From Escherichia coli (GTDB lineage Bacteria > Pseudomonadota > Gammaproteobacteria > Enterobacterales > Enterobacteriaceae): a DNA stretch of 64,000 nt. Every line of letters starts with the position of its first letter. The first letter of the stretch is position 1. A program made the position numbers. The DNA is taken from NCBI RefSeq assembly GCF_050920415.1, contig NZ_CP169309.1; one strand, written 5' to 3'. Of the stretch, positions 33,001-35,684 are shown in pieces.

Positions 33001-35684
33001 TTTTGCGCCTAATGCGTGAGCAGGGCGTAAAAGTGGATTCCGTCTCGTTAGGCGAAATAGAGCGTGCACTGGTGGCGGGTTACAATCCGCAAACGCACCC
33101 CGATGATATTGTTTTTACGGCAGATGTTATCGATCAGGCGACGCTTGAACGCGTCAGTGAATTGCAAATTCCGGTGAATGCGGGTTCTGTTGATATGCTC
33201 GACCAACTGGGTCAGGTTTCGCCAGGGCATCGGGTATGGCTGCGTGTTAACCCGGGGTTTGGTCACGGGCATAGCCAAAAAACCAATACCGGTGGCGAAA
33301 ACAGCAAGCACGGCATCTGGTATACCGACCTGCCAGCCGCACTGGAATTGATACAACGTCATCATCTGCAGCTGGTCGGTGTTCACATGCATATTGGTTC
33401 CGGCGTTGATTACGCACATCTGGAGCAGGTGTGTGGTGCTATGGTGCGTCAGGTCATCGAATTTGGTCAGGATTTACAGGCTATTTCTGCGGGCGGTGGG
33501 CTTTCTATTCCTTATCAACAGGGTGAAGAGGCGGTTGATACCGAACATTATTATGGTCTGTGGAATGCTGCGCGTGAGCAAATCGCCCGCCATTTGGGCC
33601 ATCCTGTGAAACTGGAAATTGAACCGGGTCGCTTTCTGGTAGCGCAGGCTGGCGTATTAATTACTCAAGTGCGGAGCGTCAAACAAATGGGTAGCCGCCA
33701 CTTTGTGCTGGTTGATGCCGGGTTCAACGATCTGATGCGCCCGGCAATGTACGGTAGTTACCACCATATCAGTGCCCTGGCATCTGATGGTCGTTCTCTG
33801 GAACATGCACCAACGGTGGAAACCGTCGTCGCCGGACCGTTATGTGAATCGGGCGATGTCTTTACCCAGCAGGAAGGGGGAAATGTCGAAACCCGCGCCT
33901 TGCCGGAAGTGAAGGCAGGTGATTATCTGGTACTGCATGATACAGGGGCATATGGCGCATCAATGTCATCCAACTACAATAGCCGTCCGCTGTTACCAGA
34001 AGTTCTGTTTGATAATGGTCAGGCGCGGTTGATTCGCCGACGCCAGACCATTGAAGAATTACTGGCGCTGGAATTGCTTTAACTGCGGTTAGTCGCTGGT
34101 TGCATGATGACTTGCCTCCAGCGACGGAGTTGACACTGAATGGCGACGTACCAGCGTCGGACTAAAGACATTAGTGATTTCCGGGAGAGGGCGATTATCA
34201 GCCAGCGCCAAAGCCAGTTCGGCAGCCTGGGTCGCCATCGTCACGATTGGGTAACGCACGGTGGTCAGACGCGGGCGCACATAGCGTGACACCAGCACAT
34301 CATCAAAGCCAATTAACGAAATCTCACCCGGTACTTCAATACCATTATCATTGAGAACGCCCATCGCACCCGCCGCCATTGAATCGTTATAACAGGCTAC
34401 CGCAGTGAAATTCCTTCCGCGTCCCAAAAGCTCGGTCATTGCCTGTTCGCCGCCGCTTTCGTCTGGTTCGCCAAATGTCACCAGCCGATCATTGGCCGGA
34501 ATACCACTTTCAGCGAGGGCATCGTAATAACCCTGCAGACGATCTTCGGCGTCAGAAATAGAGTGGTTAGAGCACAGATAACCAATGCGGGTATGACCTT
34601 GTTGAATTAGATGACGCGTTGCCAGCCAGGCACCGTAACGGTCGTCCAGAGCAATACAACGGTTTTCAAAGCCAGGCAGGATGCGGTTGATCAGCACCAT
34701 ACCGGGCATTTGTTTCATTAATGAGGCTAAGTCGGCATCCGGGATCATTTTGGCATGGACGACCAGCGCAGCGCAGCGATGGCGGATCAGTTGCTCAATG
34801 GCCTGACGCTCTTTTTGCTCGTTGTGGTAACCGTTGCCAATCAATAAAAAATTACCAGTGTGATAAGCCACCTGTTCGACCGCTTTCACCATTGCACCGA
34901 AAAACGGATCGGAAACATCACCAACGACCAGACCGATCGTTTCAGTGGTCTGCTGCGCCAGCGCACGGGCGTTGGCGTTCGGGTGATAGCTAAGAGACTC
35001 CATTGCACTATGCACAGCCAGTCGGGAAGCTTCGCTGGCTTTGGGTGAATTATTAATGACGCGGGAAACGGTGGCGACTGAAACGCCTGCCAGTCGGGCT
35101 ACATCCTTTATGGTCGCCATGAAAATACCTTAGTGGGTAAACGCTTACGTTCTGTCAGTGTTACGGAAAATACCTGTTGGTTCAAGTGGCGACGTGTTTT
35201 CATCGTGGGAATGTGAGCCAAACGCAAATAAATAAGACAAAAAAAGAGATTGCAAACCTTTGGTTACACTTTGCGAAACGCTGTTGCGATTGACCGCTGG
35301 TTGCGTTTGGCTTCAGGTTGCTAAAGTGGTGGTCCCAGAGGTATTGATAGGTGAAGTCAACTTCGGGTTGAGCACATGAATTACACCAGCCTGCGCAGAT
35401 GCGCAGGTTTTTTTTTGCCGGCCATCAATCTGTAACAGTAACCGACAATTTACACACCTCGTTGCATTTCCCTTCATTCCTTTGCGTTTTCTCGCTGGCG
35501 AAGAGTCGTTGTGCAGACCACAATCAAGATCCCAGAGGTATTGATTGGTGAGATTATTCGGTACGCTCTTCGTACCCTGTCTCTTGCACCAACCTGCGCG
35601 GATGCGCAGGTTTTTTTTCGCACCTAATTTACTGTCGCTCGCGTTCTTTATCTCGTGTAATCTCCCTCCATTCGCTTTTACTGA

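What the first reader, a model, noticed from the sequence alone, without database searches (positions are those of the whole stretch)
35334..35618. Tandem OmrB and OmrA small RNAs between galR and aas
Two adjacent units share the 5' sequence CCCAGAGGTATTGAT and each ends in a GC-rich hairpin plus T-run. They run opposite to galR and in the same direction as aas. An ORF-track entry (35545-35781) overlaps omrA and is almost certainly not coding.
Basis: partly seen in the sequence, partly recalled or inferred. Interest (0 to 1): 0.25.

Follow-up and report, generated by a model that had tools for sequence, protein, structure and literature searches.

The report
Known E. coli sRNAs OmrB and OmrA
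The two repeated units are the well-studied E. coli regulatory small RNAs OmrB and OmrA, base-for-base identical to the K-12 reference genes, so the finding is correct but ordinary.

Summary
Window 35334-35415 (+) is omrB and 35531-35618 (+) is omrA.

- **Family match:** the only two Rfam hits in the 64 kb window are to OmrA-B (RF00079), at 86.1 and 96.6 bits against a gathering score of 40.
- **Identity:** the 82-nt and 88-nt bodies are identical to K-12 b4445 (omrB) and b4444 (omrA).
- **Position:** they sit in the same place as in K-12, between galR (34089-35120, -) and aas (35706-37865, +).
- **Anatomy:** each unit has the invariant 5' seed CCCAGAGGTATTGAT, a GGUG/CACC stem and a 9-bp GC-rich terminator hairpin with 8-9 T.
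- **Promoters:** each unit keeps its own activator-type promoter. omrB has an OmpR-like site at -81..-62 and a TAAAGT -10 with T at -12. omrA has the conserved CTGTAACAG block and a CACAAT -10 with the C at -12 that published work links to sigma-S.
- **ORF 35545-35781:** it is real as an open frame but not coding. It has no Pfam hit, its TTG start lies inside the sRNA, and the frame is truncated or lost in other E. coli and in other genera.
- **Mechanism (from the literature on identical sequences):** these are Hfq-dependent, trans-acting sRNAs. Their 5' seed pairs with ompT, cirA, ompR and other mRNAs, forming a negative feedback loop on EnvZ-OmpR.

Nothing here is new. The only peculiarity is a rare omrB promoter haplotype, found in 5 of 5,426 complete E. 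coli genomes.

The parts
35253..35333 (+). omrB promoter. It contains an OmpR/RstA-type site (box B2 region, CAAACCTTTGGTTACACTTT, 35253-35272, -81..-62), the conserved block CTGTTGCGATTG (35281-35292), CGCTGG (35295-35300) and the -10 hexamer TAAAGT (35322-35327, T at -12).
   Evidence: The PWM built from ompF/ompC sites scores 10.0 here, which only 26 of 127,962 window positions reach. The blocks are conserved across 20 loci with tandem omr copies (Enterobacteriaceae plus Serratia and Edwardsiella). T at -75 and A at -68, the positions whose mutation impaired OmpR and RstAB activation in PMC13425233, are present. The promoter differs from K-12 at -102, -32 and -2.
35334..35415 (+). omrB, an 82-nt sRNA. 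It has the 5' seed (35334-35348), the GGUG/CACC stem, a central hairpin CAAC-UUCGG-GUUG, and a terminator.
   Evidence: Rfam RF00079 scores 86.1 bits over model positions 1-87. The sequence is identical to K-12 b4445. The MFE is -26.6 kcal/mol, z = -2.9.
35388..35416 (+). omrB intrinsic terminator: a 9-bp hairpin followed by 9 T (K-12 has 8 T).
   Evidence: Terminator scan; alignment to K-12 shows one extra T. The hairpin pairs in 100% of cells across 61 homologues, with 3 compensatory pairs.
35417..35530 (+). omrA promoter (-114..-1). It contains the conserved blocks CTGTAACAG (35430-35438), ACACCTCGTTGCATTT (35454-35469), TCATTCCTTTGCGTTTTC (35474-35491) and GCTGG (35494-35498), and the -10 hexamer CACAAT (35519-35524, C at -12).
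   Evidence: Phylogenetic footprint across 20 tandem loci. The best OmpR PWM site is at 35427-35446 (- orientation), score 5.2, top 0.19%. Published work shows that the fragment from -114 supports OmpR-P activation in vitro and that truncation to -60 abolishes activation in vivo (PMC5175337). C at -12 is described as the sigma-S determinant (PMC12692685). The promoter differs from K-12 only at -109 and -21.
35531..35618 (+). omrA, an 88-nt sRNA. It has the 5' seed (35531-35545), the GGUG/CACC stem, a central hairpin GGUACG-CUCUU-CGUACC, and a terminator hairpin (35591-35612) followed by 8 T.
   Evidence: Rfam RF00079 scores 96.6 bits. The sequence is identical to K-12 b4444. The MFE is -29.5 kcal/mol, z = -2.7. 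Terminator scan.
35545..35781 (+). Spurious 78-codon ORF with a TTG start. It overlaps omrA and the first 25 codons of aas, out of frame with aas.
   Evidence: ORF list. No Pfam family at E <= 1. In the same frame, the ORF ends after 47 codons in another E. coli and in E. albertii, and after 0-94 codons in all but one of the other genera (in E. cloacae the frame is read-through, in frame with aas). The start codon is TAG or TCG in three genera. It is not annotated in K-12 or in the closest genome.
34089..35120 (-). galR, the upstream flanking gene, transcribed divergently.
35706..37865 (+). aas, the downstream flanking gene on the same strand. Its ATG lies 87 nt after the end of omrA.

Best explanation
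The region holds the two paralogous small regulatory RNA genes omrB (35334-35415) and omrA (35531-35618) of Escherichia coli. They are a roughly 197-bp tandem duplication in the galR-aas intergenic region.

Each copy is its own transcription unit. Each has a weak-core, activator-dependent promoter, a transcription start at the first C of CCCAGAGG, and a strong intrinsic terminator.

How they work is inferred from published experiments on the identical K-12 sequences. OmpR-P binds upstream of about -60 and activates both promoters. omrA additionally depends on sigma-S, through the C at -12 of its -10 element. omrB responds to overexpressed RstAB. The RNAs bind Hfq through the terminator hairpin and U-tail. 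Their invariant single-stranded 5' end pairs with short complementary stretches near the translation start of ompT, cirA, fecA, fepA, csgD, flhD, dgcM, flgM and btuB, and of ompR itself. Pairing blocks translation and triggers RNase E-dependent decay. Because ompR is a target, the pair forms a negative feedback loop on EnvZ-OmpR.

Shown here: the identity of the genes, their structure, conservation and promoter elements, and seed complementarity at the published target positions. Inferred, not tested here: expression, Hfq binding and target repression in this particular strain.
For: - **Family:** Rfam OmrA-B hits of 96.6 and 86.1 bits against a gathering score of 40. They are full length and are the only Rfam hits in the window.
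- **Identity:** 82/82 and 88/88 nt match the annotated K-12 ncRNAs omrB (b4445) and omrA (b4444), in the same synteny lplT-aas-omrA-omrB-galR-lysA.
- **Presence in E. coli:** the intergenic region is found in 5,423 of 5,426 complete E. coli genomes.
- **Chance:** the 15-mer seed occurs twice, against an expectation of 0.03.
- **Terminators and folds:**
- **Phylogenetic survey:** a 15-mer scan of 100,044 species genomes gave Omr-shaped units (seed, GGTG, terminator) only in Enterobacterales. There were 69 such units in 47 loci, 22 of them with two copies on the locus (19 spaced 188-202 bp; Serratia 275, Edwardsiella hoshinae 220, two Pantoea about 2.03 kb). The chance hits in other phyla had no such anatomy.
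- **Confirmation of the survey:** all 30 units in the 18 loci tested reach the Rfam threshold.
- **Covariation:** the terminator helix pairs in 100% of cells, with compensatory changes at 3 of 8 pairs. Slid controls give 18-56% paired.
- **Promoter footprints:**
- **OmpR PWM:** the omrB site at -81..-62 is in the top 0.02% of window positions. The PWM sites were checked against the K-12 ompF and ompC upstream regions.
- **Target pairing:** RNAduplex places the seed at ompT +12..+21, at the cirA Shine-Dalgarno region and at ompR -18..-10. These match the positions proven by compensatory mutation in PMC2588501.
- **Regulation literature:** PMC5175337, PMC13425233, PMC12692685.
Against: Nothing contradicts this reading. 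The weak points are:

- The sigma-70 consensus scan finds no promoter on the + strand. That is expected for activator-dependent promoters, but it gives no positive support.
- The OmpR PWM match upstream of omrA is weak: top 0.19%, with about 0.3 such hits expected by chance in the region scanned.
- Duplex energies against shuffled seeds are only modestly better, or no better: z = -0.2 for cirA, up to -2.8 for OmrA with ompT.
- The homologue set used for covariation was selected partly by requiring a terminator, so the 100% pairing figure is partly circular.
- The omrB promoter differs from K-12 at -102, -32 and -2, and the effect of these changes is unknown.
Confidence: 0.97

Rival explanations
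1. The + strand ORF 35545-35781 (78 aa) is a real small-protein gene, and the second unit is its 5' region rather than, or as well as, an sRNA.
For: The frame is open for 78 codons from a TTG.
Against: The ORF has no Pfam family at E <= 1. Its TTG lies inside the invariant sRNA segment TTGGTGA, and the frame runs through an intrinsic terminator. In the same frame, another E. coli and E. albertii stop after 47 codons and all but one of the other genera after 0-94; in E. cloacae the frame simply reads into aas. The start codon is TAG or TCG in Pluralibacter, Mangrovibacter and one Enterobacter. Conservation follows the RNA structure, not codons. The ORF is not annotated in K-12 or in the closest genome.
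Confidence: 0.01
2. The two units are one transcript, or they are leader or attenuator elements of aas. On this reading the hairpins with T runs regulate read-through into aas-lplT, and the RNAs do not act in trans.
For: The units are on the same strand as aas. omrA ends only 87 nt before the aas ATG, and the consensus scan found no sigma-70-like aas promoter in that gap.
Against: Each unit has its own conserved promoter blocks and -10 element and a strong terminator of 9 bp with 8-9 U. Published in vitro transcription shows two independent OmpR-activated promoters (PMC5175337). The literature also describes two individual transcription units (PMC13425233) and proves trans-acting pairing with ompT, cirA and ompR (PMC2588501). 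In Pantoea the two copies are separated by a 579-aa gene, yet each keeps the full anatomy. Some read-through into aas is not excluded, but it would be an addition to the sRNA function, not a replacement for it.
Confidence: 0.02

Closest known systems
OmrA (b4444, formerly RygA/SraE) and OmrB (b4445, formerly RygB) of E. coli K-12 MG1655; Rfam RF00079
   Same: The transcribed sequences are identical (88/88 and 82/82 nt). Order, strand, spacing (197 bp start to start) and flanking genes are the same. So are the promoter boxes, the -10 elements (TAAAGT for omrB, CACAAT for omrA) and the terminators.
   Different: The omrB terminator has one extra T (9 against 8). The omrB promoter has three substitutions: -102 G>A, -32 G>T, and -2 A>G, the last of which removes the GATC at the start site. 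The omrA promoter has two: -109 T>C and -21 C>T. There is also a cluster of 8 substitutions near the galR 5' end. The -32T/-2G haplotype matches exactly in only 5 of 5,426 complete E. coli genomes.
OmrA/B homologues in other Enterobacterales (Citrobacter, Enterobacter, Kosakonia, Kluyvera, Serratia, Edwardsiella, Pantoea, Erwinia, Dickeya, Pectobacterium)
   Same: They share the invariant 15-nt seed, the GGUG/CACC stem, a terminator with compensatory changes, and a location upstream of aas. In Enterobacteriaceae the tandem spacing is 188-202 bp.
   Different: The central hairpins differ in sequence. Many genera have a single copy on the locus fetched. In Pantoea the two copies are about 2.03 kb apart, with a PBP3/FtsI-like gene between them.
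Other Hfq-dependent envelope sRNAs that act through a conserved 5' seed (RybB, MicA, MicF)
   Same: They have the same architecture: a single-stranded 5' seed, a structured body and a Rho-independent terminator that serves as the Hfq-binding module. They also repress outer-membrane protein mRNAs. This rests on established knowledge and on the comparison with RybB made in PMC2588501.
   Different: They are unrelated in sequence, have other regulators (sigma-E for RybB and MicA), and are not duplicated in tandem.

Membership tests
OmrA-B sRNA family (Rfam RF00079) | The covariance-model score reaches the curated gathering threshold of 40 bits over the full model. | tested here: met
   96.6 bits (35531-35618) and 86.1 bits (35334-35415), both covering model positions 1-87 of 87.
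OmrA-B sRNA family (Rfam RF00079) | An invariant single-stranded 5' seed, CCCAGAGGUAUUGAU, at the transcription start. | tested here: met
   There are exact copies at 35334 and 35531. The seed is unpaired in the MFE fold of OmrA; in the OmrB MFE only nt 1-6 are unpaired, while in the Rfam consensus and the alignment consensus folds the seed is unpaired for both. The transcription start itself was not measured here; it is taken from the K-12 annotation. The 61 homologues were retrieved with this exact 15-mer, so its invariance among them is not independent evidence.
OmrA-B sRNA family (Rfam RF00079) | A 3' Rho-independent terminator hairpin with a U-tail, which is the Hfq-binding module. | tested here: met
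   Each unit has a hairpin of 9 pairs followed by 9 T or 8 T. The helix pairs in 100% of cells, with 3 compensatory pairs, across 61 homologues.
OmrA-B sRNA family (Rfam RF00079) | Location in the galR-aas intergenic region, in tandem, on the same strand as aas. | tested here: met
OmrA-B sRNA family (Rfam RF00079) | An OmpR-dependent promoter upstream of omrB. | tested here: met
   At the sequence level only. The PWM site at -81..-62 is in the top 0.02% of window positions. It covers T-75 and A-68, whose mutation impaired activation by pOmpR (PMC13425233). The block is conserved in 20 loci. Activation itself was not tested.
OmrA-B sRNA family (Rfam RF00079) | An OmpR-dependent promoter upstream of omrA. 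| tested here: inconclusive
   The best PWM site, at -104..-85, is only in the top 0.19%. However, it lies in the -114..-60 segment required for OmpR activation (PMC5175337) and on the conserved CTGTAACAG block. The region from -108 to -22 is identical to K-12.
OmrA-B sRNA family (Rfam RF00079) | The distinction between the two paralogues at the -10 element: omrA has C at -12 (sigma-S dependent), omrB has T at -12. | tested here: met
   omrA has CACAAT and omrB has TAAAGT at -12..-7. The rule comes from PMC12692685.
OmrA-B sRNA family (Rfam RF00079) | The seed pairs with the translation-initiation regions of ompT, cirA and ompR. | tested here: met
   In silico only. RNAduplex places sRNA nt 1-9 on ompT +12..+21, on the cirA Shine-Dalgarno region and on ompR -18..-10, as published. 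Statistical support against shuffled seeds is weak (z from -0.2 to -2.8).
OmrA-B sRNA family (Rfam RF00079) | Hfq binding and Hfq/RNase E-dependent repression of targets in vivo. | not testable with these tools
   Known for the identical K-12 RNAs (PMC2588501).

The most novel reading that the evidence does not exclude
The rare omrB promoter and terminator haplotype of this lineage may shift the OmrB/OmrA expression balance, or the responsiveness of omrB to OmpR or RstA, compared with typical E. coli. The haplotype has T at -32, next to the CGCTGG -35 region, and G at -2, which destroys the GATC at the start site; those two positions together match exactly in only 5 of 5,426 complete genomes. 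The terminator also has a 9-U tail. Separately, some read-through from the omrA terminator into aas-lplT could couple envelope-stress signalling to lysophospholipid repair. Neither idea is excluded by the evidence, and neither is supported by it.
Probability: 0.08. Interest if true: 0.2.

Novelty: already known. Interest (0 to 1): 0.05.

Why it matters
It matters little as a discovery. OmrA and OmrB have been characterised since 2001-2006 and are still under active study, with reviews and new target papers in 2025-2026.

The practical value is for annotation. The standard PGAP annotation of the closest complete genome lists no feature between galR and aas. A scan that recovers these sRNAs from raw sequence therefore fills a real annotation gap, and it correctly removes a spurious 78-codon ORF.

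Tried and rejected
- **Sigma-70 consensus scan of 35000-35800.** It found no + strand promoter. This is uninformative for activator-dependent promoters, so I used phylogenetic footprints and published promoter mapping instead.
- **Simple OmpR consensus patterns** such as GTTACANNNNGTTACA. I rejected these before running them, because about 5-50 chance hits per window would be expected at 2-3 mismatches. I used a PWM from six ompF/ompC sites instead. The sites were recalled from memory, and all six were verified at contiguous roughly 20-bp steps (20-21 bp) upstream of K-12 ompF and ompC. The PWM is convincing for omrB and weak for omrA.
- **RNAduplex against shuffled seeds.** The pairing sites match the literature, but the z-scores are weak, because duplexfold allows long internal loops and the seed is short. 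I did not use this as statistical proof.
- **RNAalifold on MAFFT alignments.** It recovers the GGUG/CACC stem and the terminator, and the OmrA central hairpin. It does not recover the OmrB central hairpin, because the variable hairpins are not aligned column by column. The Rfam model alignment and the single-sequence folds do show it.
- **The exact 15-mer scan of genome contigs.** The copy-number survey is therefore a sample, not a census.
- **The seed-complementary stretch at 35169-35183 (I2/I5).** I considered it as a possible local target and rejected it. It lies on the same strand as the sRNAs, upstream of galR, so the galR mRNA would carry a seed-like sequence rather than a seed-complementary one. 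It also sits in a variable patch.

Full report
**Observation.** The sequence at 35334-35618 is as described.

- The 15-mer CCCAGAGGTATTGAT occurs exactly twice in the 64 kb window, at 35334 and 35531, both on the + strand. Allowing up to two mismatches adds no further hits. Chance expectation is 0.03 matches.
- Repeat analysis extends the shared 5' block to 22 nt (95% identical). It also finds a shared 38-nt 3' block (89% identical), with start-to-start spacings of 197 and 203 bp.
- Each unit ends in a hairpin of 9 pairs (6 of them G-C) with a 4-nt loop, followed by 9 T or 8 T.
- galR (34089-35120) is on the - strand. aas (35706-37865) is on the + strand.
- The ORF 35545-35781 exists (TTG start, 78 aa, + strand), in a different frame from aas.

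**Identity.**

- A search of the whole window against all 4,227 Rfam families gave only two hits at gathering threshold. Both are to OmrA-B (RF00079) and both are full length: 35531-35618 at 96.6 bits and 35334-35415 at 86.1 bits, against a gathering score of 40.
- The window is E. coli. The galR-aas intergenic region is found in 5,423 of 5,426 complete genomes. It is 100% identical in strain MFDS1022581, whose chromosome differs from window 35110-64000 by a single base.
- The K-12 MG1655 record annotates ncRNA omrA (b4444, 88 nt) and omrB (b4445, 82 nt) between aas and galR.
- A base-by-base alignment shows that the first window unit is identical to omrB and the second to omrA. The only change near them is one extra T in the T run after the omrB hairpin.

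**Structure and conservation.**

- Both RNAs fold better than shuffled controls: -26.6 and -29.5 kcal/mol, z = -2.9 and -2.7. In the OmrA MFE fold the 5' seed is unpaired; the OmrB MFE fold pairs part of it (nt 7-9 and 12-15), but the Rfam consensus and the alignment consensus folds leave the seed unpaired for both. The folds also show a GGUG/CACC closing stem in the consensus structures, a central hairpin and the terminator.
- Of these, 69 units in 47 loci had the Omr anatomy of seed, GGTG and terminator, and all were in Enterobacterales. Hits in other phyla lacked that anatomy and are chance matches.
- Twenty-two loci carried two copies: 19 were 188-202 bp apart, Serratia grimesii 275 bp, Edwardsiella hoshinae 220 bp, and two Pantoea about 2.03 kb.
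- All 30 units in the 18 loci tested pass the Rfam threshold.
- On an alignment of 61 distinct units, the GGUG/CACC stem never varies. The seed is invariant too, but only by construction, because the exact 15-mer was the search query.
- The terminator helix pairs in 100% of cells, with compensatory double changes at three of its eight pairs (U-A to C-G, G-C to A-U, C-G to U-A). Slid controls pair in only 18-56% of cells.
- One caveat applies: my filter required a near-complementary terminator, so the 100% figure is partly circular. The compensatory changes are not.

- Aligning -125..+6 of both units from 20 tandem loci shows two conserved blocks upstream of omrB (CCTTTgGTTACACTTTGC and CTGTTGCGATTG). 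Upstream of omrA there are several: CTGTAACAG, ACAcCTnGTTGCAyTT, TCATTCCnTTGCGTTTTC and GCTGG. This matches the published description of two and four conserved boxes (PMC13425233).
- The -10 elements are TAAAGT (omrB, T at -12) and CACAAT (omrA, C at -12). The C at -12 is the reported determinant of the sigma-S dependence of omrA (PMC12692685).
- I built a PWM from the six classical OmpR sites of ompF and ompC. I recalled these from memory, and each was verified at contiguous 20-21-bp steps upstream of the K-12 genes.
- The PWM gives a site at -81..-62 of omrB (CAAACCTTTGGTTACACTTT) with a score of 10.0. Only 26 of 127,962 window positions score as high.
- That site covers T-75 and A-68. Mutating these reduced activation by pOmpR from 81-fold to 3.3-fold (PMC13425233).
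- For omrA the best site, at -104..-85, is weak (top 0.19%). It does fall on the conserved CTGTAACAG block. It also falls within the -114..-60 segment, which published truncations show to be needed for OmpR activation (PMC5175337).
- So the OmpR check is met for omrB and inconclusive by consensus for omrA. The omrA promoter is nevertheless identical to K-12 from -108 to -22.

**Mechanism.** Experiments on the identical K-12 RNAs establish the following.

- They are Hfq-dependent.
- Their conserved 5' end pairs with ompT, cirA and ompR mRNAs near the translation start, as proven by compensatory mutations.
- Repression requires RNase E.
- Repression of ompR closes a negative feedback loop (PMC2588501; PMC5175337).

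I reproduced the pairing geometry in silico using the window's sRNA sequences and K-12 target regions. Nucleotides 1-9 pair with ompT +12..+21 (CUUCUGGGA), with the cirA Shine-Dalgarno region (UUACCUCAUGG) and with ompR -18..-10 (ACCUUUGGG). Statistical support against shuffled seeds is weak (z from -0.2 to -2.8). That is expected for seeds this short, so this step is a consistency check rather than a proof.

**The ORF.**

- The 78-codon frame has no Pfam match at E <= 1.
- It starts at a TTG inside the invariant sRNA segment and reads through an intrinsic terminator.
- It is not conserved. In the same frame another E. coli and E. albertii stop after 47 codons. All but one of the other genera stop after 0-94 codons; in E. 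cloacae the frame reads on into aas, with which it is in frame there. The start codon is TAG or TCG in three genera.
- It is not coding.

**Rivals.** The small-protein reading and the aas-leader or single-transcript reading are both rejected. Each unit has its own conserved promoter and a strong terminator. Published work shows independent transcription and trans-acting function. In Pantoea the two copies are physically separated. Minor read-through into aas cannot be excluded.

**Verdict.** This is a correct call of two textbook sRNAs. It is already known, and interest is very low. The only peculiarity is a rare omrB promoter haplotype: -32T and -2G, the latter removing the GATC at the start site. 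It matches exactly in 5 of 5,426 complete E. coli genomes. The omrB terminator also has a 9-U tail. There is no evidence that any of this matters functionally.

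Noticed in passing
window 35290-35345 (positions 35302 and 35332): The window's omrB promoter carries T at -32 and G at -2, where K-12 has G and A. 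The -2 change destroys the GATC that overlaps the omrB start site in K-12. This 56-nt haplotype matches exactly in only 5 of 5,426 complete E. coli genomes.
   Followed up: partly
window 35149-35192: Eight substitutions relative to K-12 are clustered in 44 bp just upstream of the galR start codon. There are only 6 differences in the remaining ~530 bp of the intergenic region. This could be a small recombination patch or a variable part of the galR 5' region. The variant creates a stretch (35169-35183) that is 80% complementary to the Omr seed, which is probably chance.
   Followed up: partly
window 10770-12103: There is an IS2-like element of about 1.33 kb here. In the otherwise near-identical genome NZ_CP169399.1 the same element sits about 8 kb away, in inverted orientation (L123 18840-20173). 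In the window it lies at or within the helix-turn-helix regulator gene of the ETT2 island, which corresponds to L123 10307-10807.
   Followed up: partly
window 1-~20000: By transfer of annotation from NZ_CP169399.1, this part of the window is the ETT2 type III secretion island (sctC, sctV-like, sctN, sctR/S/T/U, prgH/eprH-like, ygeH). In that genome two of its genes are marked as pseudogenes or frameshifted.
   Followed up: no
L030 2747-4879 and L059 647-2770 (Pantoea): In Pantoea the two Omr copies are about 2.03 kb apart rather than about 197 bp. A 579-aa ORF that looks like a PBP3/FtsI-type transpeptidase (L030 2936-4675; judged from its sequence by eye, not searched) lies between them, and aas follows the second copy.
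   Followed up: partly
L001 / NZ_CP169399.1 966311-966895: The RefSeq (PGAP) annotation of the closest complete genome lists no feature between galR and aas. omrA and omrB are therefore unannotated there, although they are identical to the K-12 genes.
   Followed up: yes
E. coli genome collection: One of the 5,427 matching places for the galR-aas intergenic region is on a plasmid rather than a chromosome. I did not look at it.
   Followed up: no
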